Shown here piece after piece: positions 8,069 through 53,945 of a DNA stretch of 64,000 nucleotides (position 1 is its first letter; the number at the start of each line of letters is the position of its first letter). Below the pieces are notes generated by a model. It was not told the DNA's origin and ran no database searches. It was given only the letters and a program-made list of their open reading frames with translations. The translations under genes and the position numbers were made by a program. Origin of the DNA: Rhodothermales bacterium (lineage in GTDB: Bacteria; Bacteroidota; Rhodothermia; Rhodothermales; Bin80); NCBI GenBank assembly GCA_965207385.1, contig CBDBLZ010000021.1, positions 641,205 through 705,204 on the forward strand, written 5' to 3'.

Positions 8069-11000
8069 ATGACCGTCAGATGCGACGCCCCGGGGCATGC
8101 TGCCACCCCGGCTTTCGGGCAGGCAAATGGGAGGACCGGCTACGCCAAGGTGAGGTCGCTCCTATTTCAGACGTCAGCGGCTTCAATGCTGGCTTGTGCC
8201 CTTGTGGCATGCAGGCCGGCGCCGGACACCGGCCCCAGGAAGGTCGAAGTGTTGTTCCTTGGTCATGAGAGCACGCACCATGACGCGCAGACCTACGCGT
8301 CTGCCGTTGCTGCGTCCTTTGCTCGGGAGGGCATCAATATTTCGTATTCCAACGATCCGAGCGTACTGGAGCCGGCCACACTTGACCTGTATGATGTTCT
8401 GCTTCTGTATGCCAACCACGATTCCATTACCGCTTCACAGGAGAGGGCACTGCTGGACTTTGTGGCCTCCGGAAATGGATTTGTGCCGGTGCACAGCGCC
8501 TCGTACTGCTTCAGGAATTCGGATGCATTTGTGCGGCTTGTCGGTGCCCAGTTCCAGGAGCACGGCGTTGGCAGGTTTACGGCCCCGATCCTCCAGGCGG
8601 ACCACCCTGCCATGCAAGGGCTCAAGGAATTCGAAACGTGGGACGAAACCTACGTGCACACGAGGCATGCACCAGACCGAGCCGTGCTCATGGAGCGCGT
8701 GGACGGCCAACACCGCGAGCCCTGGACATGGACGCGCACGCACGGCAAGGGGCGGGTGTTCTATACCGCCTATGGCCATGACGAACGCACATGGAACCAT
8801 CCGGATTTCCTGAATCTCCTCAAGGCGGGTCTGCTGTGGGCCGCGGGGGATAGAGTGCGTGCGCGATGGGAGGCGCTCGATCTTCCGCCGCTGGTTTACT
8901 CACCGCACGACAGCATTCCCAACTACGAGGAGCGGGATCCTCCTCCCAGGTTTCAGCATCCCCTGTCGCCGGAGGCTTCCCGGGCTCACATGCAGATTCC
9001 GCCCGGATTTGAATTGACACTATTTGCCTCCGAGCCGCTCATCAGAAACCCTATTGCGATGGCCTGGGACGAGCGGGGAAGGCTTTTCGTGATAGAAACT
9101 CGGGACTATCCTCACAACCTGCGCTCGGAAGGGGGCGATGCGATAAAGATCCTGCACGACACGGATGCGGATGGCAGGGCAGACTCCGTCACCGTGTTTG
9201 CTGACGGGCTCAGCATTGCCACAGGTCTCGCGTTCGCACACGATGGCCTCATAGTGTCCCAGGCGCCCGACATGCTCTTCCTGCAGGATACGGACGGAGA
9301 CGACAGGGCTGACAGGCGCGAGGTGTTGTTCTCGGGATTCGGGACAGGGGACACGCACGCCGGTCCGTCGAATCTCAAGGCTGGCTTTGATAACTGGACC
9401 TGGGGCACGGTGGGATACAGTGATTTCGAGGGAGTGGTGGGCGGTGACACCGTTCGAATGGTTCAGGGTGTATTTCGATTCAGGCCCGGCCAGTTGGAAC
9501 AGGTTTCCACGTATACGAACAATACTTGGGGACTTGGTTTCTCGGAGACGTTCGACGTTTTCGGATCCACCGCCAACAATGAGCACAGCGTGTTCGTCGC
9601 GATACCGGATCGATACTATGCCGGTGTCCCGGGACTGCTGGGCGATGGCAAGATCAAGATCGATGGCCACTATGCCATGCGGCCCAATACGCCCAACATT
9701 CGTCAGGTCGACGTATGGGGCGGATTTACCTCCGCTGCGGGGCACAACCTGTATACGGCGCGCGATTTCCCTGACGAATACTGGAATCGCATCGCCCTTG
9801 TCAACGAGCCAACAGGTCACCTTCTGCACCGGGCAATCATCGAGAGCGCAGGATCGGGCTACCGTGAGCGAGATGCCTGGAATCTCCTGGCAAGTGCCGA
9901 TGAATGGGTGTCGCCCGTACATGCAGAAGTGGGGCCGGACGGCGCCGTGTGGATTCTGGACTGGTACAACTTTATCGTGCAGCACAATCCCACGCCCGAG
10001 GGATTTCGCACGGGAAGGGGAGCTGCCCACGTCAATATTCTGCGGGATTACCAGCACGGACGCATTTACCGGCTCGCGTACAGGAATGCAAGGCGCCGAC
10101 GCATTCCAGAGCTGGACATTGAGCGGCCGTCTACCCTGCTAAGGGCACTTCAACATGACAACATGTTCTGGCGCATGACGGCCCAGAGGCTTCTGGTGGA
10201 GCGCGGCGGCCTTGATGTAGTGCCTGGTCTGCTGGAAATCGCGAGCGATGCGGGACTGGATGCAATAGGCCTGAATGGAGGCGCCGCGCACGCGCTTTGG
10301 ACCCTCCAGGGACTGGATGCCGTGCGTGGAGAAGCGCTGCGCATTGTGGAGTCAGCTCTTCGGCACGCGGCGCCAGGCGTCAGAAAGGCGGCGCTGGCCG
10401 TGCTTCCACGGACGGATTCCAGTCTCTCGGCCATTCGGCGCGCCGGCGTGCTGGAGGACAAGAATCTTAATGTTCGTCTGGCGGCGTTTCTGGCGGCTTC
10501 CGAAATGCCCGCCGACCGTGAGACGGGAGCCGTGCTCTACGGGCAGAGCACGCTGCCTGAAGTCAGGACGGATGTCTGGCTTCCGGAGGCGCTGTACATT
10601 GCGGCAAGCCGCCATTGGGAAGGGTTCGTGGACGCGTACGCGCAGGACCTGGGGGCGCTCGCATTCACACGGATGGCAGCTCGCCTTGCCTCCGGTTACA
10701 CGGAGACCCCGACAGACTGGTCAGCGCCCGATCTGGAAACATCGGAGTGGGGGACCATGGCCCTTCCGATGCCATGGGTAAGGACAAATGCACTGACGTC
10801 ATTCGATGGAGCCGTGTGGTTTCGCATTGAGGTCCACCTGCCGGATGCGCCCGCAGGTGCGACGCTCGGCCTGGGCGCGATATATGACAGCGACGTGACC
10901 TTTGTGAACGGCGAGCAGATCGGGGAAACCCTGAACGGCTACGATGCAGCGCGGGTCTACGGCATCCCGCCGGGTCTGTTGCAGGCCGGCCGCAACGTGG

Positions 11001-11641
11001 TTGCTGTCCGCGTGGACGATCCCCGCGGTCGTGGAGGGTTTTGGGGTAGTGCGTATGACCTGTTCCTGCGCACGGGCGGCAGAGCGCATTCGCTTGCCGC
11101 CGAGTGGCACTTCAAAGTCGAGGAGGAATATGTCGGCGGCAAGAAGAGCGAGCTGGCTGCGCATACGCCGATTGCGGAGCACTTTGTCCGGCACCACCTG
11201 GACCGGCTCGATATCGCAGCAGAACGTGTTGGTCCGTCTGCCAACAACGAAACGATACATGAACTGACTCTTTCGGTTATTCCGGGCGCACTGCAGTATG
11301 ACCGCACCTTGCTTGAGATTCCCGCCGGAAGCCTTGCAAGGCTGACGCTTACCAATCCAGGGGATATGCCCCACAACGCCGTGTTTACGGCCCCCGGCAC
11401 CGCGGAAGCTGTCGGACTGAGGTCAGAAAGGGAGGCGGCCGTGGGAGTTTTCGTTCCTGATACGTCTGCCGTGCTGTTTGCCACTGGCATGGCAGACCCG
11501 GGGTCCGAGATTTCGGTAACGTTTCGATCGCCGTCCGCGCCCGGTGACTATCCGTTTCTCTGCACGTATCCGGGCCACTGGAGAGTGATGCAGGGAGTAC
11601 TGCGCGTGACGCGGAATGCGACGGGCCGCGAGGCTTCGTAG
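8069..11641 (+). CDS. large exported multidomain protein: ThuA-like + beta-propeller (membrane-bound dehydrogenase-type) + HEAT-like repeats + jelly-roll + C-terminal cupredoxin
   Basis: 1190 aa. It has a lipobox-like N-terminus (SMLACALVAC). The ThuA-like region reads VLFLGHESTHH..LLLYANHD..FVPVHSASYCF. The middle region is of the propeller/dehydrogenase type (WDERGRLFVIETRDYP, WILDWYNFIVQHNP). The C-terminus reads GDMPHNAVF....GDYPFLCTYPGHWRVMQG, an azurin/plastocyanin-type H..C..H..M copper ligand pattern. Confidence 0.75.
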   Translation: MTVRCDAPGHAATPAFGQANGRTGYAKVRSLLFQTSAASMLACALVACRPAPDTGPRKVEVLFLGHESTHHDAQTYASAVAASFAREGINISYSNDPSVLEPATLDLYDVLLLYANHDSITASQERALLDFVASGNGFVPVHSASYCFRNSDAFVRLVGAQFQEHGVGRFTAPILQADHPAMQGLKEFETWDETYVHTRHAPDRAVLMERVDGQHREPWTWTRTHGKGRVFYTAYGHDERTWNHPDFLNLLKAGLLWAAGDRVRARWEALDLPPLVYSPHDSIPNYEERDPPPRFQHPLSPEASRAHMQIPPGFELTLFASEPLIRNPIAMAWDERGRLFVIETRDYPHNLRSEGGDAIKILHDTDADGRADSVTVFADGLSIATGLAFAHDGLIVSQAPDMLFLQDTDGDDRADRREVLFSGFGTGDTHAGPSNLKAGFDNWTWGTVGYSDFEGVVGGDTVRMVQGVFRFRPGQLEQVSTYTNNTWGLGFSETFDVFGSTANNEHSVFVAIPDRYYAGVPGLLGDGKIKIDGHYAMRPNTPNIRQVDVWGGFTSAAGHNLYTARDFPDEYWNRIALVNEPTGHLLHRAIIESAGSGYRERDAWNLLASADEWVSPVHAEVGPDGAVWILDWYNFIVQHNPTPEGFRTGRGAAHVNILRDYQHGRIYRLAYRNARRRRIPELDIERPSTLLRALQHDNMFWRMTAQRLLVERGGLDVVPGLLEIASDAGLDAIGLNGGAAHALWTLQGLDAVRGEALRIVESALRHAAPGVRKAALAVLPRTDSSLSAIRRAGVLEDKNLNVRLAAFLAASEMPADRETGAVLYGQSTLPEVRTDVWLPEALYIAASRHWEGFVDAYAQDLGALAFTRMAARLASGYTETPTDWSAPDLETSEWGTMALPMPWVRTNALTSFDGAVWFRIEVHLPDAPAGATLGLGAIYDSDVTFVNGEQIGETLNGYDAARVYGIPPGLLQAGRNVVAVRVDDPRGRGGFWGSAYDLFLRTGGRAHSLAAEWHFKVEEEYVGGKKSELAAHTPIAEHFVRHHLDRLDIAAERVGPSANNETIHELTLSVIPGALQYDRTLLEIPAGSLARLTLTNPGDMPHNAVFTAPGTAEAVGLRSEREAAVGVFVPDTSAVLFATGMADPGSEISVTFRSPSAPGDYPFLCTYPGHWRVMQGVLRVTRNATGREAS

Positions 11642-12010
11642 CTCCGGGCGCTTGCTTTGATAGCGGCGTTTTGTGTCTATCCTCGGACATGACGTAGCCT
11701 CGATTATCGAGCCACGGCCACCATCAGGGCAATAGCTGTCACTATCAAGCCTACGCGTCAATTCCATCCGCTGCGTCGCCGATTCTTGGTCCGGGAACTT
11801 ATCCAGTAATCCCAATCAATTCACTGCCTGCACTCTCTGCCACATGAAATATGCTATCTGCGAGGGAAATATCAATAGACTTGCCACATAATCTCTACAG
11901 TGTTGTCACAAATCCTGTTCCCGTCGTCTTCAGTTGTACATCTCCAACGACTTCCCTATATTGAAAGCACAACATTTCTTCACCGATATTCGTTAACCAG
12001 CTAGATACAA

Positions 12011-12298
12011 GTGACCATGAAGATCATAGCTATGAAGACCGTAGACAGGACGGTATTCTCGGCATTACTATTCGCAGGGCTGGCCATCCTGGCATTTGCG
12101 GGTGGTGGGCTTTTTAATGCAGCGTTTCTCTCACCCGCTGATACTCAAGCGGGTGACGATACTTGTGACCACGACGTTTGCAAAGAGATCACATACGCAG
12201 ATGACTCAGTGGAGTGGGTCTGCGGAGACGATGGGACATTTACTTGGGAAGATTGCAATGCCCAACACAATAAGGAATGCGACATGGATGACTGTTGA
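12011..12298 (+). CDS. exported acidic Cys-rich mini-protein (cassette 1)
   Basis: 95 aa with GTG at 12011 and ATG at 12017. The leader is hydrophobic (FSALLFAGLAILAFAGGG). The tail is GDDTCDHDVCKEITYADDSVEWVCGDDGTFTWEDCNAQHNKECDMDDC, with 6 Cys and 16 D/E among the last 48 residues, and it ends on Cys. It lies in an AT-rich island preceded by about 370 bp of non-coding sequence. Confidence 0.6.
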   Translation: MTMKIIAMKTVDRTVFSALLFAGLAILAFAGGGLFNAAFLSPADTQAGDDTCDHDVCKEITYADDSVEWVCGDDGTFTWEDCNAQHNKECDMDDC

Positions 12299-13052
12299 CA
12301 CTGGACCGGGATTCCTAGTATGCGGTTTAAGATGGCGCTCTGGCTCTGAAGATGAACTTCGTCTTGACCGCGAGAAGAAGGTCGCGCTCGGTGGATTCCA
12401 GGTCGACGATTAACGTTGAGGCTCCCCGATGGGGCATAGCAGTAGCCATTCGCTGCCCGACTCCGCCGGAGCTCAATGGATTGGATGTGTCCATGGTGAG
12501 AAGGGGTTTGATGATGAACAAATTAGGCTGGACTACTTGACCAGTTCCGCTGCTAGAACCCCGCTGCGGCTACACTTCTAATGTACAACCGTATCTCACT
12601 TTTTGTTGGCACGGAGGGCAGGACATACCAGCCCGCCATTGTAGTCAATGGACCAGAGGTCACGGTTCAAGCGCGAATTCGTAATTCGATTGTGCAAGAG
12701 ATTTCCCGTCTGTGCTTCGATGTGTCGTCGCGGGCGGTGCTACTAAAACGAAATGGTCGAGCGCCGGTAGTGCAGCCTCACCCGCGAAAAGGTCCGCTAA
12801 TGCGAGTACGTGCCGTTGCCCGAGGCCCCGAAGTGCCTTCACTCGCCCCCATCGACGCCACAAATAGCTCAAGAATTGCGGTCCGGCCACCGTTTATTGT
12901 GAGCTGGACGGAATCCCTTTGGCCAAATCCGAAGTCACCACTACAACGCATTACTCACAGGGTTCGCCATGTCCCACGCTTACCGAGGTAAGACTGCCCC
13001 GAATCCGCCGGCGCACTGTCCCGCCGAATGGGTACATCCTAATAGTTAAACC

Positions 13053-14198
13053 ATGATTTCCTGGAAGCTACGCATCATAATTCTTTGTGCCGTTATCGGG
13101 CTACTTTTGGTTGTTGCCCTTCTCGCGAATATCGTAGGTGATAGAATCGGCGGGGCGACTAATCCTGTCGGAGAAGTACGCCATCCTACTCCCGAGAACA
13201 TACCCTCGGTAACCGATGCACGCCGCGTAGCAGGCCATGGGCCCGCTACCGGCGATGGTAGTCATGCCTTCTTGGATTCAACGTCCTACAGCGAGCTAAC
13301 TATTGGTGTAGCAGAGGGATCGGCGCACGAAATGTTCGGCCTGATTGAAGATGTCGTCATCGACTATAGTGGCAACATTTTTATTTTGGATTCTCAGTAT
13401 AACCAGGTGCGAGTATTCGACTATGATGGCTCCTTCATTAGCACGATCGGTGCTCCTGGACAAGGACCGGGTGAATTCCTTTCTGCACGAAATGTGTTGA
13501 TTTCCTCTCTAGGGAACATTGTTGCGGTTATGAGTGGCCCGAAGATCGAGATGTTTGAACGACAGGGTCCGACTTCTTTCGCATACCGCTCTACTTTCTC
13601 CAGAGAAGGTTACCTTGGGCCCGGCGGATGCGCAATGAACAACCATTTGTATCTATTGGCCGTAGTTCCCAATAGGGACGGTATGATACATAAACATACG
13701 CTCGACGGCGAAATAGCCCGTTCTTTTGGAGCGCTATACAATTCTGACAACGAACAAGTTGTCAGACATATGTCGACGAAAGCTCGACTAGCGTGTAGTG
13801 AGAAGTATAGTATTGTAAGCTTCCTTATGGACTTTTCGCCGGTTCTTACCGGCTATCGCGAAGACGGTACGGTGGCTTGGCATGTGTCATTCGAGGGTTT
13901 TCTGGCATCGGCCGTTTGGGAAAGAAGAACTCCGGAAGGCCGGAATCGTATCTCGTATAGCGCAAATGAGGTCGGGGAAGCGTTCTACACGCATATGTTT
14001 TTTCATCATGATCACTTTTACGTCGGTTACAGAGTACGAGGTGATGGCACAGGACAGCACTTCAGAATTCACGCAGAAAGTGGGTATACGGAGTACTTGG
14101 GAACTCTCGACGCAGCAGTCTATGGTATCGACGGAGAGCGTGTAATAGTGGCCAGGAATTTTCCGTTCCCGAGAGTCAAGGTGTTCACTAGGCGATAG
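13053..14198 (+). CDS. 6-bladed beta-propeller protein (NHL/DUF5128-like), N-terminal signal anchor (cassette 1)
   Basis: 381 aa. TM segment LRIIILCAVIGLLLVVALLANIV. Blade motif DYSGNIFILDSQYNQVRVFDYDGSFISTIGAPGQGPGEF. It is a paralogue of 21150..22166. Confidence 0.75.
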   Translation: MISWKLRIIILCAVIGLLLVVALLANIVGDRIGGATNPVGEVRHPTPENIPSVTDARRVAGHGPATGDGSHAFLDSTSYSELTIGVAEGSAHEMFGLIEDVVIDYSGNIFILDSQYNQVRVFDYDGSFISTIGAPGQGPGEFLSARNVLISSLGNIVAVMSGPKIEMFERQGPTSFAYRSTFSREGYLGPGGCAMNNHLYLLAVVPNRDGMIHKHTLDGEIARSFGALYNSDNEQVVRHMSTKARLACSEKYSIVSFLMDFSPVLTGYREDGTVAWHVSFEGFLASAVWERRTPEGRNRISYSANEVGEAFYTHMFFHHDHFYVGYRVRGDGTGQHFRIHAESGYTEYLGTLDAAVYGIDGERVIVARNFPFPRVKVFTRR

Positions 14199-14206
14199 AC
14201 GCTCAC

Positions 14207-14812
14207 GTGAAGGTACTTGAAGTCAAGTGGATACGGTGGGGAGGCGCTGGTATAGTGGCGTCGTGTTTTTGGCTCGGGGCCGTGGTGGGAATTCCGATTT
14301 CGTCAGTGGAAATTCATTGGAGAGTAAAAGACTCTCAGCCTGGGGAAAGGTATGTGCCCTCACATTCTGTGGTTAGCGGGCGGGAAATGGTGATGGTTTA
14401 TCTTGGCGCGTATTCTTGTGCGTTCGCAAATGACGAGGCGTTGCCTCGGATTGTTGAGAGGATTAAGCTTGGTTTGCAGGACAAGGCTGTGAACGAGGGT
14501 ATGTCATTTTCAGCTATTGGAGTGGCGGTGGATTGGCGCGTTGGTGAGGGAGTTGAACACTTGGAAAAATTTGGACAGTTTGATGAGATCTTGGCTGGGC
14601 GCAAATGGCACGGAGTCGGCTCTCTGCAGTTCTTCAAGGAACGGTTAGCGGGAGTAGCGGCGACGCCGCAAGTCTTGGTGTTTAAGCGGGATATAGAGGC
14701 GGAAGAGGGTGCATTTCGAGTGTCGAACGAACGCGTGCTTGTCCGAAAGATGGGCGTGTTAGGCATAGGCAATTGGCTTGAACGCGGGTTGCCTTTGCCT
14801 GAGAACTTATAG
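14207..14812 (+). CDS. membrane-anchored thioredoxin-fold protein, monothiol CAFA variant (cassette 1)
   Basis: 201 aa with a GTG start 8 nt after the propeller stop. TM segment AGIVASCFWLGAVVGIPI. VMVYLGAYSCAFANDEALPRIVERI aligns with the CSFC site of 22169..22675. A later TPQVLVF looks like a cis-Pro loop. Confidence 0.55.
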   Translation: MKVLEVKWIRWGGAGIVASCFWLGAVVGIPISSVEIHWRVKDSQPGERYVPSHSVVSGREMVMVYLGAYSCAFANDEALPRIVERIKLGLQDKAVNEGMSFSAIGVAVDWRVGEGVEHLEKFGQFDEILAGRKWHGVGSLQFFKERLAGVAATPQVLVFKRDIEAEEGAFRVSNERVLVRKMGVLGIGNWLERGLPLPENL

Positions 14813-15091
14813 AGCAGGTTGAGCTGGAATGGCGGTGGCACTGCGCGCATAGCGCCAGCAAATCAAACGAGCAGAAACAGCCCAAATCTAGAATATGTGT
14901 AGGTAGACTTGGACATCTATCTCCGCATGTACGCGCTTGAAGGCATGGACTTTTGCGGCATGCCAATATTCAGCGAGGGGTTTAAGGGATCTCTTGGGGC
15001 GCTCAGACCCGACCGCCTCCATCCGTGACTTTGAACGGATCGCCGGCGGCAGGCAGACAGTTCGCGCGGCTAAGCCGCCCATAAAAGCGTG

Positions 15092-16531
15092 CTACGCGAT
15101 AATTCCCTTCACCACAAAAGCCTCCTCTACCCCTGTTAGCTTTTGGTCCAGTCCCCGAAACTTGACAGTGAGTCGCTCATGGTCGATGCCTAGCTGATGC
15201 AGAATTGTGGCGTTCAGGTCGCGGATGTGTACGGGATCCTCGAGTATGTTATAGGCGAAGTCATCGGTTAGTCCATACTCGATCCCCGGCTTTATGCCGC
15301 CGCCCGCAAGCCACAGCGTGAAGCAGCGACCATGGTGATCGCGGCCGGCGCTTGGATGTCCCAGCTCACCCTGGCTGTATATGGTACGACCGAATTCCCC
15401 TCCCCAGATGACGAGCGTCTCCTCCAGCAAACCGCGTCGCTTCAAGTCCTTGACCAGGGCAGCCGATGCCTGATCCACATCCAGGCACTGCGAAGGCAAT
15501 TGCTGCCTGAGCGCGATGTGCTGGTCCCATCCCCGATGGAAGAGTTGCACGAATCGCACGCCCCTTTCCGTCATTCGCCGCGCGAGCAGGCAATTTGCGC
15601 TGTAACTGCCAGGCTTGCGGGAGTCCGGGCCATAGAGTTCGAATACTTCCTCCGGCTCATCAGACAAATCCATCAGATCCGGAACCGCAGTCTGCATGCG
15701 GAAGGCCATTTCATAGGCTTCGACCCGGGCAAGGGTCTCGGGATCACCCACCGCTTCGGCTTCGCGGCGGTTGAGAACGGCCAGATCGTCCAGCATGCGC
15801 CTTCTTTGCGCACGAGTCACGCCCGGTGGATCGGAGAGGTAAAGCACCGGGTTCACCCCCGGTCGCAGTAGCACGCCCTGATGGCTACTGGGCAGGTACC
15901 CGCTGCCCCAAAGCCGCGCATAAATGGGCTGTCCGGGATTTTTCCCGGATCCTTGGGACAGCAGAACCATGTAGGCGGGGAGGTTCTCGTTTTCGCTGCC
16001 AAGTCCATAGCTCAGCCAGGCACCTAGGCTGGCATGTCCGATTTGCTGTGATCCGGTGTTAATGAACGTGATGGCAGGATCATGATTGATGGCCTCCGTA
16101 TGCATCGACTTGATGATGCAAATGTCATTTGCAATAGACTGAATATGTGGCAGCAGGTCGCTTATCCATGTGCCGTGGTGGCCGCAGCGGCGCATGGGCC
16201 ACATGGGAGATACTACCGGGAAGGAATTCTGCCGTGAGGTCATGCCGGTAAGCCGTTGGCCACCGCGTATGGAGTCCGGCAACTCAGTGGAATGCAAATC
16301 TGTCTGGGCGGGCTTGTAGTCGAAGAGGTCGACGTGCGAAGGACCACCTGACTGGAAGAGGTAGATTACCCGCTTTGCTTTTGGCAGAAAGTGAAGCGGG
16401 CTGCGCCCGCCGGTCCCCGTCAGATCCGGGAACAACAGGCTGGCCAGGCCGAGCCGCCCGATTCCCCTTGCTGTCTTGCCAAGGAAAGTACGGCGTGTGA
16501 TAGCACGTTCGAAATCGAGGACCGGATGCAT
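15092..16531 (-). CDS. DUF1501 family protein (sulfatase-like fold), Tat signal
   Basis: 479 aa. N-terminus [25 protein letters not shown] is Tat-like. Its size and sequence are typical of the DUF1501 partner of DUF1553 proteins. It starts 1-2 nt after the upstream gene's stop. Confidence 0.75.
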
Positions 16532-16532
16532 G

Positions 16533-19625
<3,093 letters not shown>

Positions 19626-20583
19626 GTAGCTTGGCCGCTTTGACGTGATCGATTCCAGCTCCAACTCCAGCATACAAGGTAGAGGATAAGCCAATTACGA
19701 ACTCGCCCAAGTCGAATGCCTGAGATGAACCCAACCGCTACTTCCACTATCGTAGACAACTTGGAATCGATTGGCACGATTAAGCAGACTTGGCCTTAGG
19801 ACCGCAGTGGATGTCACGGCGTGGCCTTGGCGAAGAGGTCCCTTGAACAGCCGTAAGAAGATTGGCAGTAGCAAATTGGCCGGCACGATAGCTCACTTGA
19901 TAGTTCGCGGCCATAGGCGCGGGACGGGGGCCCACCAATCTTATTGGCAGATGCGGGACCAACAAACCACCGTGGCAACCGCGGACCCAAGGCGCGCTGT
20001 GGGCCCTTAGGATCACTGTGTCCGCGGCGATCGCCAGACTGACACGGGATTCACGGAGTGGCACACGGAAAAAGGACCGGTGGAACTAGGGTTGGGACGG
20101 ACGAGCGGATAGACCAGATTAAACTCGGTAGAAGGTTAGGATTCGATCCGACTGGAAGCCTTGTCGGTGCTGCAGCACAGTGCAACCGGCATCCCGCAAG
20201 GGGCTGGCGGGCCAATAGGGTAGTAGATGGCACCGTACTACCGAAGCCATTGGGTAATGCCTACCGAGGAAAGCAGCCTTGAGCTGAGCGCTGTGTGGAC
20301 GGACGTAAATCGATGTCCGGGACGTAAGCGGTACTGTAATCGCTATACTTTACCAGATCTAAAATGTCCATTTATGGTTCTCCGAGTAGTCCAATAATGG
20401 CGTGCCCTCTCTAAGGGCCCGTCCCGGCTGCTGCCAACCATATCGACGTGGCCTCGAACGATTCCCGTCAGCCTACGTCTTCATCCATTCTTAACTCGCA
20501 AGCACTCGAACATTACTTGTCGCCCATTATGACATTCTCTCTACTTCGTCCGCTACTTACTCGTACATGTCAACTAAATCTCT

Positions 20584-20862
20584 ATGACCATGCATGCCCA
20601 TAGCCGTTCAATCAGTCGGACCTTTCTCGCTCTAGCGTCGGCCGCTACTTTCATTGTGCTGGCCCTTTCATTTCCCGACGGCCAAGTAGCGCAAGCGAGA
20701 GACCCAGTGTGCAATGGAACTTGCGGCGCGCATTGCGATCTAGGCCCGGATTACTACTGCCACACGCTCTATTGTTGCGATAGGAGCCAACTTCCGTGCT
20801 CCGAAGGAGATGTGGAACCCTTCACCTGCTATGGCGACACCGACATTATGGTCACGCCCTAA
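20584..20862 (+). CDS. exported Cys-rich mini-protein (cassette 2, copy A)
   Basis: 92 aa. Leader RTFLALASAATFIVLALSF..VAQA. Tail RDPVCNGTCGAHCDLGPDYYCHTLYCCDRSQLPCSEGDVEPFTCYGDTDIMVTP has 8 Cys. Like 12011, it begins M-T-M (ATGACCATG versus GTGACCATG). Confidence 0.6.
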   Translation: MTMHAHSRSISRTFLALASAATFIVLALSFPDGQVAQARDPVCNGTCGAHCDLGPDYYCHTLYCCDRSQLPCSEGDVEPFTCYGDTDIMVTP

Positions 20863-20883
20863 CACTAAACAAACGGTGCCTTC

Positions 20884-21153
20884 ATGATCAAGAAAAGGAT
20901 TTCTCGCTTACTCGTGTCGGTCCTCCTGACAGGGCTATTCTTAAGTCTAACGTTGGCTTCCTCTACCGCAGGCAAAGTCCCAGTCCCTGACTGCGGAGCT
21001 GATGCGATGCGCCGTTGTATCGCAGCAGGATGCGGGGGCGATGAGGTGGTGCTATGCGGTTCCACGACGTGTCTGGAATGTGTCGATTTTGCGGGTCTTT
21101 TTAATTTGGGTTGCTGGCTCAAGGACTTCTACTGTTACGGGGACTATCCATGA
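20884..21153 (+). CDS. exported Cys-rich mini-protein (cassette 2, copy B)
   Basis: 89 aa. Signal peptide MIKKRISRLLVSVLLTGLFLSLTLASS. Tail VPVPDCGADAMRRCIAAGCGGDEVVLCGSTTCLECVDFAGLFNLGCWLKDFYCYGDYP has 8 Cys. Its stop overlaps the next gene's ATG (ATGA at 21150-21153). Confidence 0.65.
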   Translation: MIKKRISRLLVSVLLTGLFLSLTLASSTAGKVPVPDCGADAMRRCIAAGCGGDEVVLCGSTTCLECVDFAGLFNLGCWLKDFYCYGDYP

Positions 21154-22166
21154 TCCGAACTCTGTCCTTCTTCTTGTGCCTGTCTTTGGTGTCGTGCCGC
21201 GCCACGCCAGCGGGACAAGATGGTACACGGCTCTTTGCCAAATTGTTGCTGTCGCCGGTCACGGAACAAGAAGCACAAGAACGGGAGTGGCGCGATGTTT
21301 CTCTCCGCCAGGTATTCAGCTTGCCAAGGTCACCGGATGTGTTGCTGTTTAACCCGGGAGAGATTACAGTTGATGCCGCAGGAAATATTTTCGTGACAGA
21401 TCACGCTGTGTTCAAGGTCTTGGCTTTTGATCAGGACGGCCACTATATCAGATCGTATGGAGAGGGAGAAGGAGAAGGGCCTGGTGAGTTGAGATCCGTA
21501 ATGAATACTGGATTAATCGGCGACACCACGCTTTTTGCCGTAGACTACGCTTCTAGGAAGATCTCATACTTCTCCAAAGATTCAGGAGCCTTTATTGAAT
21601 CTCGTACGATCACCGGAGTGCCCATTAGGCACACTGTTAGTACCGAAGGTGTCGCGTATACGCTGGTCGGTCGTACCGACTCGCTATTCCGATCCGAGAG
21701 TGGATCAGATGTGATCCAGTTCGGGGAATTGGTTGAGAATCAAATCTCACATGGCTTTAACCTGGCCTTAGGGTATATCGATACATACCGGGACAAGATG
21801 TTGCTCAGCCTAACCTACTTCCCAGTAATTGCGCAATACGAATCAGATGGGTCCCTCGTGTATGCGCGCACAACTCCGGACTATTTCGCGCAGTTTGACG
21901 AGCCGGAATGGGTGCGCACCGACTTTGCGGGAGCCATCGGTTTTCGTATTCAGGGCCAGGCGATTAACACTAGAAGCAGCGTGTACAACGATCAGCTTTT
22001 TGTGCATTCACGGAAAGCAGGTGCTATTGACGTGTTCGATGCCGAGACGGGTGACTACGGTTACTCCTTCCGGCTTCCACGAGATAGGAGTGCAGCGTAT
22101 GTTATGAACAATCGTCTGTATCAAGCGGAAGATACAACCGTAGTTGTATACTCATTTAGCTTGTAA
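21150..22166 (+). CDS. 6-bladed beta-propeller lipoprotein (NHL/DUF5128-like) (cassette 2)
   Basis: ORF 21111..22166. The likely start is MIRTLSFFLCLSLVSC (lipobox) at 21150. Blade motif DAAGNIFVTDHAVFKVLAFDQDGHYIRSYGEGEGEGPGEL. It is a paralogue of 13053..14198. Confidence 0.75.
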   Translation: MIRTLSFFLCLSLVSCRATPAGQDGTRLFAKLLLSPVTEQEAQEREWRDVSLRQVFSLPRSPDVLLFNPGEITVDAAGNIFVTDHAVFKVLAFDQDGHYIRSYGEGEGEGPGELRSVMNTGLIGDTTLFAVDYASRKISYFSKDSGAFIESRTITGVPIRHTVSTEGVAYTLVGRTDSLFRSESGSDVIQFGELVENQISHGFNLALGYIDTYRDKMLLSLTYFPVIAQYESDGSLVYARTTPDYFAQFDEPEWVRTDFAGAIGFRIQGQAINTRSSVYNDQLFVHSRKAGAIDVFDAETGDYGYSFRLPRDRSAAYVMNNRLYQAEDTTVVVYSFSL

Positions 22167-22168
22167 CG

Positions 22169-22675
22169 GTGAGTAGACCCGCATCTCGGACGCCGTTGAT
22201 AATGGAATGGGTCAGTTACGCTGTCCTATTGGTTACCATTGTCATGTTCGCTTGGACGGTTTTCGGACCGCCAGAACCCACACCGTATGTCGACGTTGGC
22301 GATAGCATTCAGGCCGTGAAAGGTATGGAAGGGGAGTGGCCGGGCGAAAGCCTGTTGTTGGTTTTGTCCCCGACGTGTTCTTTCTGCACGGGAAGCCTGC
22401 CGTTCTATAAGCAGTTGGTGGATCAGAGAGAGAGGGAGGTGAACATAATTGTTGCTATAGATACCAGTGCGTCTGCAACTTTGCAGCGGCGTCTACTCGG
22501 GCAAGCAGGGGTAGCTCCGGATACGACGATCGTAATTCCTACGGTAGACGATAGGGTTGTGTATGTCCCAACAATTATTCACGTAGATCAAGGAGCGATG
22601 GCAAAGAGAGTGTGGGTTGGCCAGTTGAATGGCGAACAGGAAGAAGAAGTACTGTCGATTGTACGAATGAAGTAG
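22169..22675 (+). CDS. membrane-anchored thioredoxin-like protein with CxxC (CSFC) (cassette 2)
   Basis: 168 aa with a GTG start 2 nt after the propeller stop. TM segment WVSYAVLLVTIVMFAWTVF. LLLVLSPTCSFCTGSLPFYKQL is a TlpA/ResA-type active-site context, and VPTIIHVD looks like a cis-Pro loop. Confidence 0.65.
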   Translation: MSRPASRTPLIMEWVSYAVLLVTIVMFAWTVFGPPEPTPYVDVGDSIQAVKGMEGEWPGESLLLVLSPTCSFCTGSLPFYKQLVDQREREVNIIVAIDTSASATLQRRLLGQAGVAPDTTIVIPTVDDRVVYVPTIIHVDQGAMAKRVWVGQLNGEQEEEVLSIVRMK

Positions 22676-23002
22676 CGCAATTGCGGAGCAATGGTCGCAA
22701 TACGTAAGGAAAACGGGCCGAGTACAGGGTGGAAATTCGCGCGATATAGCGGTTGAAGCCAGCCATACCATTTGCGGGGCCGGCCGGTCACTCGCGCGGG
22801 GGCACGGGTGGAGGATCAGCACCGGCGTAAATGGATAGGGCGACCGGCGACGTTTTGGACTTACGCCGGCGAGAGACTAGTAGTACGGGGACTCGAGGTC
22901 TGCTCTAAAGTGGATCGGCCGTTTGTTCGGTCAGTTCACAAGCGAGATGGTATGGGGGTACGCCATTGGGCGCATATTCTCTCTTCTGACCTGCTAGCCG
23001 AA

Positions 23003-39776: not shown

Positions 39777-41153
39777 GTGAAGGATCTTTTTGCCGAAGCT
39801 GAAAAGCGCCACCGGTTAAGGGCTGCACCTCTCGCCGACCGCATGCGGCCGCGCGAACTGGGCGAGTTCGAGGGTCAGGAGCGTATTCTGGGCCGCGGGA
39901 AGCTGCTGCGCCGAGCCATCGAGGCCGACAGGATCCGCTCTCTAATACTGTTCGGGCCTCCCGGTACGGGCAAGACCACGCTTGCGCGCGTAATAGCCCG
40001 CACCACGCGTGCGCACTTTGCTACGCTCAATGCGGTAATGTCCGGAGTAAAGGATATTCGTGTTGCGACCGAGCAGGCCGATGAACGGCTGCGCATGCAC
40101 GGCAGGCGCACCATTATGTTTGTAGACGAGGTGCACCGCTTCAACAAGGCCCAACAGGATGCCCTACTGCCAAGTGTCGAAAGCGGGACCATCGTCTTTA
40201 TCGGCGCTACGACGGAGAATCCGTACTTCGAGGTCATAAAGGCGCTGGTGAGCCGATCGCGCGTATTTGAATTCCGGCCCCTGGAAGAAGTCCACCTGAA
40301 GAAGCTGGCGATACGCGCCCTGTCAGATGCACGGGGGTATGCGGACCGGCAGGTCGCACTGGAAGACGAAGCGCTCGAGCACCTGGTCCACACATCGGGA
40401 GGCGACGCTCGCTCGCTGCTCAACGCCTTGGAACTTGCCGTTGAAACGACGCCCCCCGGTCCGGAAGGTACCGTGCACGTTACGCTGGACGTTGCGGAAG
40501 ACAGCATTCAGCAGCGTGCTGTTCTGTATGACCGGGACGGGGATGCCCACTACGATACCATCAGCGCGTTTATCAAGAGTATGAGAGGCAGCGATCCCGA
40601 TGCCGCGCTGTACTGGATGGCACGAATGCTGTATGCAGGGGAAGATCCGCGCTATATCCTGCGCCGGATGCTGGTTTTTGCCGCCGAAGACGTAGGTCTG
40701 GCGGATCCCCGGTGCCTGCAGGTGGCTGCGAGTGCGGCGCAGGCATTCGAATACGTGGGTATGCCCGAGGGCCAGTACCTGCTTGCTGAATGCTGCCTAT
40801 ACCTGGCCACCGCCCCCAAGAGCAATAGTACCAAGGCGTACTTTGGCGCCTTGCGGCACGTAAGGAGCGAGGATGGTGGTGCTGTACCAGATGCTCTCAA
40901 GGATGCTTCGAGGGATAGCTCGGAACTTGGCCATGGAAAGGGATACCGCTACCCCCACGACCATGCCTACCACTACGTGCCTGCTCAGTATCTTCCGTCC
41001 GGCATGCTAGGTACATACTTTTACGAACCGGGCGCAATGGGTTTTGAGAAGTCCATTCGGGACCGGCTGGACTGGTGGCGTAAGCAAGATTTGGAAGCGG
41101 GCCTTGACAAGCGAAGCCGGCACTACTCGGCTGAAAAGCAGCGTGACCAATAG
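39777..41153 (+). CDS. rarA: replication-associated recombination protein A (AAA+ ATPase RarA/MgsA)
   Basis: 458 aa. Walker A is GPPGTGKTTLARVIA and Walker B is IMFVDEVHRFNK. Also FIGATTENPYFE and a C-terminal MgsA region (YDTISAFIKSMRGSDPDAALYWMARML). Confidence 0.85.
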   Translation: MKDLFAEAEKRHRLRAAPLADRMRPRELGEFEGQERILGRGKLLRRAIEADRIRSLILFGPPGTGKTTLARVIARTTRAHFATLNAVMSGVKDIRVATEQADERLRMHGRRTIMFVDEVHRFNKAQQDALLPSVESGTIVFIGATTENPYFEVIKALVSRSRVFEFRPLEEVHLKKLAIRALSDARGYADRQVALEDEALEHLVHTSGGDARSLLNALELAVETTPPGPEGTVHVTLDVAEDSIQQRAVLYDRDGDAHYDTISAFIKSMRGSDPDAALYWMARMLYAGEDPRYILRRMLVFAAEDVGLADPRCLQVAASAAQAFEYVGMPEGQYLLAECCLYLATAPKSNSTKAYFGALRHVRSEDGGAVPDALKDASRDSSELGHGKGYRYPHDHAYHYVPAQYLPSGMLGTYFYEPGAMGFEKSIRDRLDWWRKQDLEAGLDKRSRHYSAEKQRDQ

Positions 41154-41156
41154 CAC

Positions 41157-51942: not shown

Positions 51943-52182
51943 TCAGGCCCCGCCGCTCTTGATTGTCAGGAGGAAGGTGATCACGAGGCCGAACAATGCC
52001 ACACCCTCGATCAGGGCGGCGGCAATGATCATGCTTTGCCGGATATCATCGGTAGCCTCAGGCTGCCGGGCCGTGCCTTCCATGGCCGGCCCTGCAAGTC
52101 GCCCGATTCCAATGCCTGTGCCGAGGGCGATCAGCCCGGCACCCAGGCCGGCTCCGAGCCATGCCAATGCAACGGATTCCAT
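51943..52182 (-). CDS. atpE: F0F1 ATP synthase subunit C
   Basis: 79 aa with a two-helix hairpin. Contains ARQPE in the loop and the proton-binding Glu in ALIEGVALF. Confidence 0.9.
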   Translation of the reverse strand: MESVALAWLGAGLGAGLIALGTGIGIGRLAGPAMEGTARQPEATDDIRQSMIIAAALIEGVALFGLVITFLLTIKSGGA

Positions 52183-52229
52183 AGTGATGGGGGGGTTTGA
52201 TGTTAGTGGACAGCGTGTGCGAAATAGCG

Positions 52230-53622: not shown

Positions 53623-53702
53623 TCAAACACGCCAGCGCCAATCGGGAGCCGGCCCGGCCGACAATCAGGGGTGAATTCTATGTGAATGAAGCCGGGACGG
53701 GA

Positions 53703-53939: not shown

Positions 53940-53945
53940 CGAGGG

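What the first reader, a model, noticed from the sequence alone, without database searches (positions are those of the whole stretch)
20584..22675. Cassette 2: two tandem 8-Cys peptides translationally coupled to a lipoprotein propeller and a CxxC Trx-like protein
Four ORFs occupy 2.1 kb with spacers of 21 nt, -4 nt (ATGA overlap at 21150-21153) and 2 nt, which reads as a single operon. The propeller has a clear lipobox (LSLVSC) once the internal ATG at 21150 is used. The last gene has an N-terminal TM helix and a TlpA/ResA-like CSFC site. All products are therefore predicted to meet on the periplasmic face.
Basis: partly seen in the sequence, partly recalled or inferred. Interest (0 to 1): 0.75.

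Follow-up and report, generated by a model that had tools for sequence, protein, structure and literature searches.

The report
Secreted cysteine-rich peptide pair operon
A compact, horizontally mobile four-gene operon encodes two exported mini-proteins with eight conserved cysteines each, a propeller-shaped lipoprotein and a membrane-anchored thioredoxin-like enzyme that most likely forms their disulfide bonds; the peptides are unannotated and belong to no known family, so the system is new but resembles known helper-assisted bacteriocin operons.

Summary
Window 20584-22675 (+) holds four tightly packed ORFs with spacers of 21, -4 (ATGA) and 2 nt. They are two signal-peptide-bearing 8-Cys peptides, a Cys-free DUF5128/NHL beta-propeller with a lipobox (LVSC) at the 21150 start, and a TM-anchored thioredoxin-fold protein (CSFC plus a cis-Pro loop).

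The same gene order recurs in at least four further lineages (L001 Rhodothermales MAG, L009, L012, L016), and the propeller-Trx pair recurs in L015, a sponge metagenome. Every Cys, the lipobox and the CxxC are kept at 26-74% identity. DNA homology to L001 starts and stops at the cassette borders, and the cassette is 7-9 GC points below its hosts.

The Trx-like protein belongs to a large unnamed family (3251 representatives, motif C-x-[FY]-C-x2-S-x-P-F-Y). In all three distant contexts sampled, members sit next to Cys-rich small ORFs that are secreted or cut by the contig end; two of these contexts lack a propeller.

Best reading: a self-contained module for Sec export and dedicated oxidative folding of two four-disulfide mini-proteins, with the propeller lipoprotein as their binding partner (immunity or holder). 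Function is inferred, not shown. Both structure predictions failed. I rate it a new variant of a known kind, interest about 0.6.

The parts
20584..20862 (+). pep1: exported 8-Cys mini-protein precursor (92 aa, or 90 aa from the conserved ATG at 20590). Signal peptide about residues 1-38 (AQA|RD). The mature part is about 54 aa with framework C-x3-C-x3-C-x7-C-x4-CC-x6-C-x9-C.
   Evidence: Homologues with 8 Cys occur in L001, L009 and L012. tblastn to L001 gives 59% identity, E 3e-23. No Pfam, NCBIfam or PDB match. Not in the public protein collection.
20884..21153 (+). pep2: exported 8-Cys mini-protein precursor (89 aa). Framework C-x7-C-x4-C-x7-C-x4-C-x2-C-x10-C-x6-C. Its stop overlaps the propeller start (ATGA).
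   Evidence: All 8 Cys columns are invariant in 4 lineages. There is a fifth homologue in L016 and a pseudogene in L002-4. dN/dS against L001 is 0.15. No family or PDB match.
21150..22166 (+). NHL-type six-bladed beta-propeller lipoprotein (338 aa, Pfam DUF5128). The lipobox Cys16 codon is at 21195-21197. The mature protein contains no Cys.
   Evidence: Pfam PF17170 scores 34.8 bits against a cut-off of 22.9. NHL-repeat matches in the PDB profile search range from E 4e-17 to 6e-4. Start and lipobox are conserved. dN/dS is 0.19.
22169..22675 (+). Membrane-anchored thioredoxin-fold protein (168 aa from GTG 22169, or 157 aa from ATG 22202). TM segment about residues 15-33. CSFC at 22376-22387. 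cis-Pro (VPT) codon at 22568-22570.
   Evidence: CxxC, SxPFY and the VPT loop are invariant in 5 homologues. Redoxin match is weak (E 0.054; 4 of 5 homologues, best 0.0017). PDB profile hits are 8t4c 'thioredoxin oxidoreductase' at E 0.006 and StoA at 0.15. The family has 3251 representatives. dN/dS is 0.25.
20586..22680 (.). Extent of the cassette as a unit of homology and low G+C (0.517 against 0.592 for the window).
   Evidence: Sliding identity to L001 is 60-87% inside and 30-50% outside. In L001 and L016 the cassette lies among transposase genes.

Best explanation
This is a self-contained, horizontally mobile operon for making two exported four-disulfide mini-proteins.

- **Step 1 (shown by sequence).** pep1 and pep2 carry Sec-type signal peptides, the propeller carries a lipoprotein signal, and the Trx-like protein carries one N-terminal membrane anchor. 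The four genes are packed with stop/start overlaps.
- **Step 2 (inferred).** All four products end up on the periplasmic side of the inner membrane.
- **Step 3 (inferred from comparative data).** The Trx-fold protein is the dedicated thiol-disulfide oxidoreductase of the peptides, whose 16 Cys are its only plausible substrates. Its active site C-S-F-C (family consensus C-x-[FY]-C) resembles DsbC/DsbG-type isomerases more than TlpA/ResA reductases. It is recycled by the host's general redox machinery, because no partner is encoded in the cassette.
- **Step 4 (least certain).** The Cys-free NHL propeller lipoprotein binds the folded or folding peptides, above all pep2, whose stop codon overlaps the propeller start. 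It acts either as a self-protection (immunity) protein or as a holder/scaffold that presents them to the oxidoreductase, in the way the fused Trx-NHL proteins NHLRC2/SOQ1 are built.

The peptides themselves are most likely extracytoplasmic effectors (bacteriocin-like toxins or host/competitor-directed ligands).
For: **Conserved architecture.**
- The full four-gene order recurs in L001, L009 and L012.
- pep2, propeller and Trx recur in L016.
- Propeller and Trx recur in L015 and L006-10.
- Propeller/Trx stop-start overlaps or spacers of 6 nt or less occur in every lineage.

**Conservation of Cys.**
- Cys are the main invariant residues of the peptides: 8 of the 16 invariant columns in pep2.
- The Cys count is always even, 8 and 8.
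- No His or Met is conserved.

**Plausible substrates.** The mature propeller has no Cys. The Trx protein has only the CxxC pair.

**Trx fold hallmarks.** CxxC and cis-Pro are invariant. 83 of 87 family members have an N-terminal hydrophobic anchor. The N-flanks of the window, L001 and L012 proteins are basic.

**Wider Trx family.** Three more distant family members were sampled, and each sits next to a Cys-rich small ORF:
- L016 has a pep2-like ORF plus a propeller.
- L017 has an unrelated secreted Cys-rich ORF and no propeller.
- L019 has a Cys-rich ORF fragment and no propeller.
The Trx-peptide link is therefore the general one, and the propeller is an add-on.

**Orphan propeller.** In L002-4 the propeller ORF is intact while pep2 carries two stop codons, pep1 is gone and no Trx remnant is detectable. 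This is the pattern expected of an orphan immunity gene.

**Fast evolution of pep1.** pep1 evolves with pN/pS of about 1 while keeping every Cys, as secreted toxin-like peptides do.

**Precedents.** PedC is a putative thiol-disulfide oxidoreductase encoded in the pediocin operon (PMC4919988). NHLRC2 is a Trx-like domain fused to an NHL propeller and has bacterial homologues (PMC6107167).
Against: - There is no experimental evidence at all.
- Both AlphaFold models were unusable (pLDDT 53 and 35), so no fold-level test of either protein or of any complex was possible.
- The topology of the Trx protein is predicted only. The positive-inside bias across the wider family is weak (N>C in 32, N<C in 22, tie in 29).
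- The cassette encodes no route across the outer membrane and no redox recycling partner.
- The direction of catalysis (oxidase, isomerase or reductase) cannot be read from the sequence.
- The role of the propeller rests on adjacency and on one decayed locus.
- The Trx gene is frameshifted in L012/L013 and lost in L002-4, so the module is dispensable.
- The generalisation to the wider Trx family rests on three sampled contexts.
Confidence: 0.55

Rival explanations
1. Stable envelope complex. The propeller is the large subunit and pep1/pep2 are small disulfide-rich subunits of one periplasmic or surface protein, either an enzyme or an adhesin/receptor. The Trx-like protein is its assembly factor. 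This mirrors methylamine dehydrogenase, which has a MauB propeller, the disulfide-rich light chain MauA and the Trx-like MauD.
For: The ATGA overlap of pep2 with the propeller suggests fixed stoichiometry. pep2 and the propeller evolve at similar low dN/dS (0.15 and 0.19). The pep2-propeller-Trx core is kept in L016. 21 of 87 relatives of the Trx protein weakly hit the MauD model. [quoted passage not shown]
Against: The propeller survives intact where pep2 is a pseudogene and pep1 and Trx are gone (L002-4). pep1 evolves at pN/pS of about 1, which is unusual for an enzyme subunit. The propeller alignment has no invariant His or other obvious catalytic set. There is no MauA, MauE or MauG-like gene and no Pfam hit of the peptides to any small-subunit family. 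Members of the Trx family pair with Cys-rich ORFs without any propeller.
Confidence: 0.2
2. Reduced-thiol function. The peptides act as periplasmic metal- or oxidant-binding thiol peptides (a metallothionein-like buffer for Cu, Zn, Cd or Hg), and the TlpA-like protein keeps them reduced.
For: TlpA/ResA/CcmG-type relatives, to which family members show weak similarity, are reductants (established knowledge). The peptides are about 15% Cys.
Against: The Cys count is always even and the spacing is fixed across 26-62% identity, which is typical of structural disulfides. There are no conserved His, Met or CxxC metal motifs in the peptides. The active-site dipeptide is C-x-[FY]-C, not C-x-P-C. No CcdA/DsbD electron donor and no metal-resistance gene is in or next to the cassette in any locus.
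Confidence: 0.1
3. RiPP-like pathway in which the propeller is a modifying enzyme, for example a PAL-like lyase, cyclase or cross-linker, acting on the peptides after export.
For: NHL propellers include the peptidyl-alpha-hydroxyglycine alpha-amidating lyase domain (PDB 3fvz, E 6e-4). A distant hit is named a PAL family protein by NCBI (P0014). pep1 and pep2 of the window and L001 share a C-terminal C-[YF]-G-[DE] motif.
Against: No invariant His, so the Zn-His3 site of PAL is absent. The C-terminal motif is not kept in L009, L012 or L016. Only blades 1-2 match NHL models. The peptides carry Sec signal peptides rather than RiPP leader peptides.
Confidence: 0.08
4. Not a functional unit: the small ORFs are spurious and the adjacency is accidental.
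For: The public gene calls miss both peptides. No sigma-70-like promoter or terminator stands out.
Against: Both peptide ORFs are conserved with intact frames and invariant Cys in 4-5 lineages. Shuffles give 0.15 such ORFs per window. The homology block with L001 begins at the pep1 start codon.
Confidence: 0.02

Closest known systems
PedC/BrcD-type and BdbA/BdbB-type dedicated thiol-disulfide oxidoreductases of bacteriocin operons (pediocin PA-1, sublancin)
   Same: A Trx-fold CxxC protein with a membrane anchor is encoded in the same operon as small secreted Cys-containing peptides and is needed for their correct disulfides (PedC: PMC4919988; sublancin: my own knowledge). This is the closest analogue in the sense of 'works like'.
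   Different: No sequence membership: the TIGR01295 model has no hit for the window protein and hits 1 of 87 relatives at 0.0044. The known systems are Gram-positive, use GG-leader/ABC-transporter export and have 1-2 disulfides. Here the host is diderm, export uses Sec signal peptides, there are 4 predicted disulfides per peptide, and there is a propeller lipoprotein.
TlpA/ResA/StoA/CcmG/MauD-like membrane-anchored periplasmic thioredoxins (Pfam Redoxin/AhpC-TSA/Thioredoxin_8)
   Same: An N-terminal anchor plus a Trx fold with CxxC and cis-Pro. Relatives of the window protein hit these models (Redoxin 52 of 87, ResA 45 of 87, StoA 23 of 87, MauD 21 of 87).
   Different: The window protein is below all curated cut-offs. 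Its active site is C-x-[FY]-C instead of C-x-P-C or C-P-x-C. It has its own signature C-x2-C-x2-S-x-P-F-Y. Its genomic partners are Cys-rich peptides rather than cytochrome c, Cu-chaperone or spore-cortex systems.
NHLRC2 / SOQ1 (Trx-like domain fused to a six-bladed NHL propeller)
   Same: They pair a thioredoxin-like module with an NHL beta-propeller, which is thought to be a protein-interaction platform. They are conserved from bacteria to mammals (PMC6107167). SOQ1 appears among the PDB hits of the cassette-1 propeller.
   Different: Those are single polypeptides with Trx N-terminal to the propeller, a CC(I/V)NC motif, a C-terminal beta domain and no conserved operon partner. Here there are two separate genes in the order propeller then Trx, a plain CxxC, a lipid anchor and a TM anchor, and peptide genes upstream.
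Pfam DUF5128 (PF17170) six-bladed beta-propellers of the Bacteroidota group
   Same: The propeller passes the Pfam gathering threshold (34.8 against 22.9 bits), as do the L012 and L009 homologues.
   Different: The family has no known function, and no paper in the searchable library mentions it. The cassette-type subfamily is very rare: a handful of clusters among 5.8 billion, one species genome in GTDB, and none of this subfamily in the JGI metagenomes.
Methylamine dehydrogenase gene set (MauB propeller, MauA Cys-rich light chain, MauD Trx-like, MauE)
   Same: A propeller, a small disulfide-rich exported polypeptide and a Trx-like accessory protein in one cluster.
   Different: No MauE or MauG. 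The peptides do not match MauA. The propeller is the NHL six-blade type rather than the MauB seven-blade type. The MauD model is not hit by the window protein.

Membership tests
Thioredoxin-fold thiol-disulfide oxidoreductase (superfamily) | CxxC motif at the start of helix alpha1 | tested here: met
   C70 and C73 are invariant in 5 close homologues. C70 is invariant and C73 is present in at least 90% of 87 family members.
Thioredoxin-fold thiol-disulfide oxidoreductase (superfamily) | Conserved cis-proline loop opposite the active site | tested here: met
   V133-P134-T135 is invariant. P134 is invariant in 87 members. That the proline is cis is assumed from the fold, not shown.
Thioredoxin-fold thiol-disulfide oxidoreductase (superfamily) | beta-alpha-beta-alpha-beta-beta-alpha fold | tested here: inconclusive
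   The AF2 model is poor (pLDDT 52.7). Its secondary-structure order fits a Trx fold. No fold search was attempted.
TlpA/ResA-like (Pfam Redoxin / AhpC-TSA; NCBIfam ResA, StoA, TlpA) | Match to a family model above its curated cut-off | tested here: not met
   Redoxin scores 13.7 bits against a cut-off of 26.6. There is no NCBIfam hit at E up to 1. Relatives hit only weakly.
TlpA/ResA-like (Pfam Redoxin / AhpC-TSA; NCBIfam ResA, StoA, TlpA) | Reductase-type active-site dipeptide with Pro (CxPC or CPxC) | tested here: not met
   The window has CSFC. In the family, position 3 is F or Y in most members (CPYC 11, CPFC 10, CHYC 7 and others).
TlpA/ResA-like (Pfam Redoxin / AhpC-TSA; NCBIfam ResA, StoA, TlpA) | N-terminal membrane anchor with the Trx domain outside the cytoplasm | tested here: inconclusive
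   The hydrophobic segment is present (83 of 87). The orientation is only predicted: the N-flank is basic in the window, L001 and L012 proteins, but the family-wide bias is weak.
PedC/BrcD bacteriocin maturation disulfide isomerase (TIGR01295) | Match to the family model | tested here: not met
   No hit for the window protein. 1 of 87 relatives hits at E 0.0044.
PedC/BrcD bacteriocin maturation disulfide isomerase (TIGR01295) | Operon with a GG-leader bacteriocin and a peptidase-ABC transporter | tested here: not met
   The peptides have Sec-type signal peptides, and no transporter gene is in the cassette or its conserved neighbourhood.
Pfam DUF5128 / NHL-repeat six-bladed propeller | Match above the Pfam gathering score, with NHL repeat motifs | tested here: met
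   PF17170 scores E 1.4e-8, 34.8 bits against 22.9. The PDB profile search finds NHL proteins (Pizza/PknD, TRIM71, Brat) at E 4e-17 to 1e-9. Only blades 1-2 match strongly, and six blades are not verified because the AF2 model failed.
Bacterial lipoprotein | Lipobox [LVI][ASTVI][GAS]C after a hydrophobic h-region at the N-terminus | tested here: met
   L-V-S-C16 in the window; IASC, VVSC, ILSC, MTSC and LQSC in the homologues. Lipidation itself is not testable here.
Peptidyl-alpha-hydroxyglycine alpha-amidating lyase (PAL) | Zn site of three His plus catalytic Tyr/Arg in the propeller | tested here: not met
   No invariant His among the 60 invariant columns of the 5-sequence alignment. The PDB 3fvz match is limited to one blade, E 6e-4.
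NHLRC2/SOQ1 | Single chain with Trx-like domain, NHL propeller and C-terminal beta domain; CC(I/V)NC motif | tested here: not met
   Separate genes in the order propeller then Trx, with a CSFC motif. The family description comes from PMC6107167.
Methylamine dehydrogenase (mau) system | MauA light chain, MauB, MauD, MauE and MauG genes | tested here: not met
   No Pfam or NCBIfam hit of the peptides or the window Trx to MauA or MauD. No further genes lie in the homology block.
Known anti-phage defence systems (PADLOC) | Match to any PADLOC model | tested here: not met
   No hit at E up to 0.01 for any of the four proteins.

The most novel reading that the evidence does not exclude
The cassette may be one visible example of a widespread, unrecognised bacterial system. 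In it, Sec-exported cystine-rich mini-proteins (pep1 has a knottin-compatible C-C-CC-C-C core plus one extra pair) are each serviced by a dedicated membrane-anchored C-x-[FY]-C thioredoxin-fold foldase of a family with more than 3000 representative sequences. In sponge-associated Rhodothermales-type bacteria this is combined with an NHL-propeller lipoprotein that acts as immunity protein or receptor. That would amount to a new family of bacterial two-component disulfide-rich toxins or effectors, and a possible bacterial source of the 'cysteine-bridged peptides' found in sponges.
Probability: 0.3. Interest if true: 0.8.

Novelty: new variant of a known kind. Interest (0 to 1): 0.62.

Why it matters
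**Peptides.** Disulfide-rich mini-proteins (knottin-like scaffolds) are prized as stable drug scaffolds and are well known from animals, plants and sponges. How a single disulfide topology is enforced is an open point (review PMC12426817). Bacterial, genetically compact examples with their own foldase would be directly usable for heterologous production.

**Annotation gap.** The peptide genes are invisible to current annotation: they are absent from a collection of 15 billion proteins. The Trx-like family that flags them has thousands of members and no name, so it could serve as a genome-mining handle for hidden Cys-rich peptides.

**Propeller.** The pairing of a separate NHL propeller with a Trx-fold protein offers a genetically tractable model for the unexplained Trx-NHL fusion proteins NHLRC2/SOQ1.

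Tried and rejected
- **Structure route.** AlphaFold2 on the Trx alignment (5 sequences) and the propeller alignment (3 sequences) gave pLDDT 52.7 and 35.1. The models were unusable, so no fold search was run.
- **Peptide family search.** Pfam, NCBIfam, PDB profiles and PADLOC gave no hit. hhalign of pep1 against pep2 aligns only the signal peptides, so 'tandem duplicates' is rejected.
- **Wider collection scans with the propeller.** GTDB species genomes gave only the Rhodothermales MAG. JGI metagenomes gave only a generic NHL protein with no cassette (L011). Plasmids gave no match for the propeller or the Trx protein.
- **More distant DUF5128 hit.** P0025 (L014) has no peptides or Trx nearby. 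The association is therefore specific to the subfamily, not to DUF5128 as a whole.
- **Non-coding features.** tRNA, Rfam, sigma-70 promoter/terminator and terminal-repeat scans around the cassette gave nothing informative. The promoter consensus used does not fit this bacterial group, so this says little.
- **Cassette 1 as a true paralogue.** Rejected. The propellers share only one NHL blade (34% over 73 aa). The 201-aa protein is not a member of the Trx family and has no PDB relative.
- **PAL-like enzyme reading.** Rejected for lack of conserved His.
- **Source of the window.** Exact look-ups of its called proteins found no contig on record.
- **Literature.** Searches for DUF5128, NVEALA and the sample accessions returned nothing.


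Full report
**1. What is in the sequence**

On the + strand of window 20584-22675 there are four consecutive ORFs.

- **pep1** (20584-20862, 92 aa) has a basic N-terminus, a 17-residue hydrophobic core and an AQA|RD cleavage-type site. It is followed by a 54-residue part with 8 Cys, spaced C-x3-C-x3-C-x7-C-x4-CC-x6-C-x9-C.
- **pep2** (20884-21153, 89 aa) has a similar signal peptide and a 59-residue part with 8 Cys, spaced C-x7-C-x4-C-x7-C-x4-C-x2-C-x10-C-x6-C.
- **The third ORF**, read from the ATG at 21150, overlaps the pep2 stop as ATGA and begins MIRTLSFFLCLSLVSC|RATP. This is a canonical lipobox (L-V-S-C16). The mature protein has no further Cys.
- **The fourth ORF** (22169-22675) has one hydrophobic segment (residues 15-33) and then ...LVLSPTCSFCTGSLPFYK....

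ORFs of this kind are not expected by chance. Only 4 of 503 small ORFs in all six frames of the window combine a hydrophobic N-terminus with at least 6 downstream Cys.

**2. Are the genes real, and is the 21150 start used?**

*Propeller.* It passes the Pfam gathering score for DUF5128, a 'six-bladed beta-propeller' family (34.8 against 22.9 bits). A profile of it finds NHL-repeat structures in the PDB (PknD-derived Pizza designs, TRIM71, Brat, and the PAL domain weakly).

A search of 5.8 billion protein clusters found only three close relatives:
- P0001 is the window's own gene, called from Met65 (274 aa).
- P0002 is 74% identical, 338 aa, with the same start as 21150.
- P0003 is 52% identical.

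In the alignment the first 64 residues are conserved at protein level. The lipobox Cys is invariant, as LVSC, IASC and VVSC, and as ILSC, MTSC and LQSC in three more distant homologues. The comparative evidence therefore favours the 21150 start over the public call.

*Peptides.* Neither peptide sequence exists in the 15-billion-protein collection, so they are unannotated.

*L001.* P0002 lies on OZ244148.1, 'MAG: Rhodothermales bacterium' (lineage). Reading that locus (L001) shows the same four ORFs in the same order. The ATGA overlap of pep2 with the propeller is there, together with a GTGA overlap of the propeller with the Trx gene.

*Selection.* Codon-level comparison with L001 gives dN/dS of 0.15 (pep2), 0.19 (propeller) and 0.25 (Trx), so these three are under purifying selection. 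pep1 gives about 1.05 with every Cys kept.

*Start codons.* The start of pep1 that is conserved between the two genomes is the second ATG, at 20590. The Trx start is either GTG 22169 or ATG 22202, and the public call uses the latter (P0005). Overlapping or abutting propeller/Trx junctions in L001, L009, L015 and L016 make the upstream start plausible.

**3. The cassette is a discrete, mobile unit**

- Nucleotide identity between the window and L001 is 30-50% (background) up to about 20585. It is 60-87% from 20586 to about 22680, and background again beyond.
- The flanks are unrelated. In the window they are a PSCyt/PSD1 and DUF1501 gene pair on one side and a gamma-glutamyltranspeptidase on the other.
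- In L001 they are IS66 genes and a relaxase on one side and a DDE transposase on the other.
- In L016 they are several transposases and group II intron reverse transcriptases.
- The cassette is consistently poorer in G+C than its host DNA: 0.517 against 0.592 in the window, 0.492 against 0.583 in L001, and 0.444 against 0.515 for the L002 propeller.
- No tRNA, Rfam element or terminal repeat marks the borders.

**4. How widely is the architecture conserved?**

| Locus | What is present |
|---|---|
| L009 | pep1 (8 Cys, shares the CCDxSQLPC motif), pep2 (8 Cys), lipoprotein propeller (ILSC), Trx (CPYC) on one 2.3-kb contig |
| L006-8, L010 | fragments of the same arrangement |
| L012/L013 | pep1, pep2, propeller (MTSC), Trx (CPYC) split by a frameshift |
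| L015 | propeller and Trx with a 4-nt overlap; the record is labelled 'sponge.metagenome' |
| L016 | pep2 homologue (VPVPNCG..., 8 Cys), lipoprotein propeller, Trx (CPYC) |

- In the four-lineage alignments, all eight Cys columns of pep2 are invariant at 27-62% identity. Seven of the eight Cys columns of pep1 are invariant, and the eighth is shifted by one residue in L009.
- pep1 and pep2 are not detectably homologous to each other beyond the signal peptide.
- In L002-4 (three samples, one population) the cassette is decayed. The propeller ORF is intact with its lipobox, pep2 carries two in-frame stops, pep1 is absent, and no ORF matches the Trx family.
- The subfamily is rare. It occurs in one species genome of GTDB r232 and in none of the JGI metagenome contigs scanned apart from a generic NHL protein. 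It is absent from the plasmid collection.

**5. The Trx-like protein**

- Five close homologues keep C70-x-x-C73, S76-x-P78-F79-Y80 and the V-P134-T loop expected for the cis-proline of a thioredoxin fold.
- Similarity to curated models is weak. Redoxin scores E 0.054 for the window protein, and 4 of 5 homologues hit it with a best E of 0.0017.
- In the PDB profile search, 8t4c 'thioredoxin oxidoreductase' scores E 0.006 and StoA scores 0.15.
- An exhaustive profile search of 1.84 billion representative proteins returned 3251 hits at E up to 1e-3 and 642 at E up to 1e-10. Most are 160-200 aa and match end to end.
- Among 87 of them, 83 have an N-terminal hydrophobic segment, C70 and P134 are invariant, and the active site is nearly always C-x-[FY]-C.
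- They hit Redoxin (52 of 87), Thioredoxin_2 (50), AhpC-TSA (34), and the ResA (45), TrbB (25), StoA (23) and MauD (21) models only weakly. PedC/BrcD is hit once.

The protein is therefore a member of the TlpA-like branch of the thioredoxin superfamily in a broad sense. It belongs to an unnamed family of its own. Its active-site dipeptide resembles DsbC (CGYC) and DsbG (CPYC) rather than TlpA, ResA or CcmG (my own knowledge of those motifs).

**6. What do relatives of the Trx protein sit next to?**

Three more distant members were looked up, and each is adjacent to a Cys-rich small ORF:
- L016 is described in section 4.
- In L017 the Trx protein (CPFC) is followed 27 nt downstream by a 112-aa ORF with a signal peptide and about 9 Cys. 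There is no propeller.
- In L019 the C-terminal 60 residues of an upstream ORF, cut by the contig end, hold 6 Cys. It is followed by the Trx protein (CQFC) and a non-propeller gene.

Although n = 3, this points to the Trx-peptide pair as the general functional unit. The propeller would then be an accessory of the pep1/pep2 type.

**7. Mechanism**

*Shown.* Four co-oriented, overlapping genes; export signals on all four products; 16 conserved Cys in the peptides and none in the mature propeller; an intact CxxC/cis-Pro active site; a mobile, self-contained block.

*Inferred.*
- The peptides are cleaved by signal peptidase I and oxidised to four disulfides each.
- The anchored Trx-fold protein faces the periplasm and catalyses or proofreads this step. 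The basic N-flanks in the window, L001 and L012 proteins fit an N-in orientation, but the family-wide K/R bias is weak.
- The propeller lipoprotein binds the products.

*Immunity-type role for the propeller.* Three things favour it: the orphan intact propeller in L002-4, the fast, Cys-preserving evolution of pep1, and the two-peptides-then-protector gene order reminiscent of two-peptide bacteriocin operons (my own knowledge).

*Scaffold role for the propeller.* The precedent is the Trx-NHL fusion architecture of NHLRC2/SOQ1 (PMC6107167).

*Not explained.* How the peptides would leave a diderm cell, which host system recycles the Trx protein, and the low synonymous divergence of pep1.

**8. Rivals**

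- **Stable propeller/small-subunit complex, like methylamine dehydrogenase.** It fits the pep2-propeller coupling but fits poorly with the orphan propeller and the absence of any catalytic signature.
- **Thiol-buffer or metal-binding role with a reducing Trx.** The even, fixed Cys framework and the lack of metal motifs speak against it.
- **PAL-like modifying propeller.** The alignment has no conserved His.
- **Artefact.** Excluded by conservation.

**9. Comparison with what is known, and novelty**

- Functionally the nearest precedents are the dedicated oxidoreductases of bacteriocin operons (PedC: PMC4919988). By sequence the window protein is not a member of that family.
- The propeller is a member of DUF5128, a family without known function and without literature in the searchable library.
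- The peptides have no relatives in Pfam, NCBIfam or the PDB.
- I found no description of an operon that combines Sec-exported 8-Cys peptides, an NHL propeller lipoprotein and an anchored Trx-fold protein. The literature tool is limited to open-access text.
- I rate it a new variant of a known kind (helper-assisted disulfide-rich secreted peptides). There is a fair chance that it is the tip of a larger unrecognised system.

**10. Limits**

- Both structure predictions failed for lack of alignment depth.
- The source organism of the window could not be retrieved.
- Only one relative's record names a habitat (sponge metagenome).
- Everything about function is inference from sequence and gene neighbourhood.

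Noticed in passing
window 12011-14812 (+): 'Cassette 1' has a 95-aa ORF with a hydrophobic N-terminus and 6 Cys (12011-12298). After a 750-nt gap without a convincing ORF comes a DUF5128/NHL propeller with a TM anchor rather than a lipobox (13053-14198). It is followed by a 201-aa TM protein (14207-14812) with a single Cys (SCAF). The GC dip is the same (0.518). It is only a loose analogue of cassette 2. The propellers share one NHL blade, and the 201-aa protein is not a member of the Trx family and has no PDB or Pfam relative.
   Followed up: partly
window 21150-21341 and 20584-21153: The public gene call of this genome starts the propeller at Met65 (P0001, 274 aa), which removes the signal peptide and lipobox. 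The collection holds neither peptide sequence. In L001 the two peptide genes were not called either.
   Followed up: yes
window 20590-20883 versus L001 9450-9743: pep1 has unusually low synonymous divergence (pS 0.17-0.32, against 0.51-0.68 in the three neighbouring genes) with pN about equal to pS. Its 3' third plus the 21-nt spacer is the best conserved DNA of the cassette (82-87%). The cause could be a recent exchange followed by fast amino-acid change, or a nucleotide-level constraint. Rfam finds nothing.
   Followed up: partly
L002 9790-11241 (also L003, L004): This is a decayed copy of the cassette. The propeller is intact (P0003, lipobox VVSC). pep2 carries two in-frame stop codons and overlaps the called, over-long propeller start. 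There is no pep1, and only a 54-aa TM-like remnant sits where the Trx gene should be.
   Followed up: yes
L012 2184-2725 (identical in L013): The Trx gene is split by a one-base frameshift between the TM segment and the Trx domain. This is either a pseudogene or an assembly error shared by two assemblies that may derive from the same sample.
   Followed up: partly
L017 5001-5881; L019 2-891: Members of the same Trx-like family lie next to unrelated Cys-rich small ORFs, with no propeller. L017 has a 112-aa ORF with a signal peptide and about 9 Cys. L019 has a C-terminal fragment with 6 Cys in 60 aa.
   Followed up: partly
window 20698-20859: Cys 3-8 of mature pep1 (C-x7-C-x4-CC-x6-C-x9-C) fit the C-C-CC-C-C framework of inhibitor cystine knots, with one additional N-terminal Cys pair. 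This is a pattern resemblance recalled from memory, not a test.
   Followed up: no
window 19700-20583: About 880 nt upstream of pep1 have no convincing ORF and no homology to the L001 upstream region. No sigma-70-type promoter was found, but the consensus used does not suit this bacterial group.
   Followed up: partly
window 8069-19694: The neighbours of the cassettes are a 1190-aa ThuA-DUF7133-HEAT-cupredoxin protein, and a DUF1501 gene with a PSCyt1/PSCyt2/PSD1 gene on the minus strand. These are typical 'planctomycete-type' envelope genes and are not conserved next to the cassette elsewhere.
   Followed up: partly
window 41001-43000 and 52001-54000: There are strong AT-skew outliers: -0.33 and -0.25 in the first stretch, and +0.19 in the second. 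The cause was not examined.
   Followed up: no
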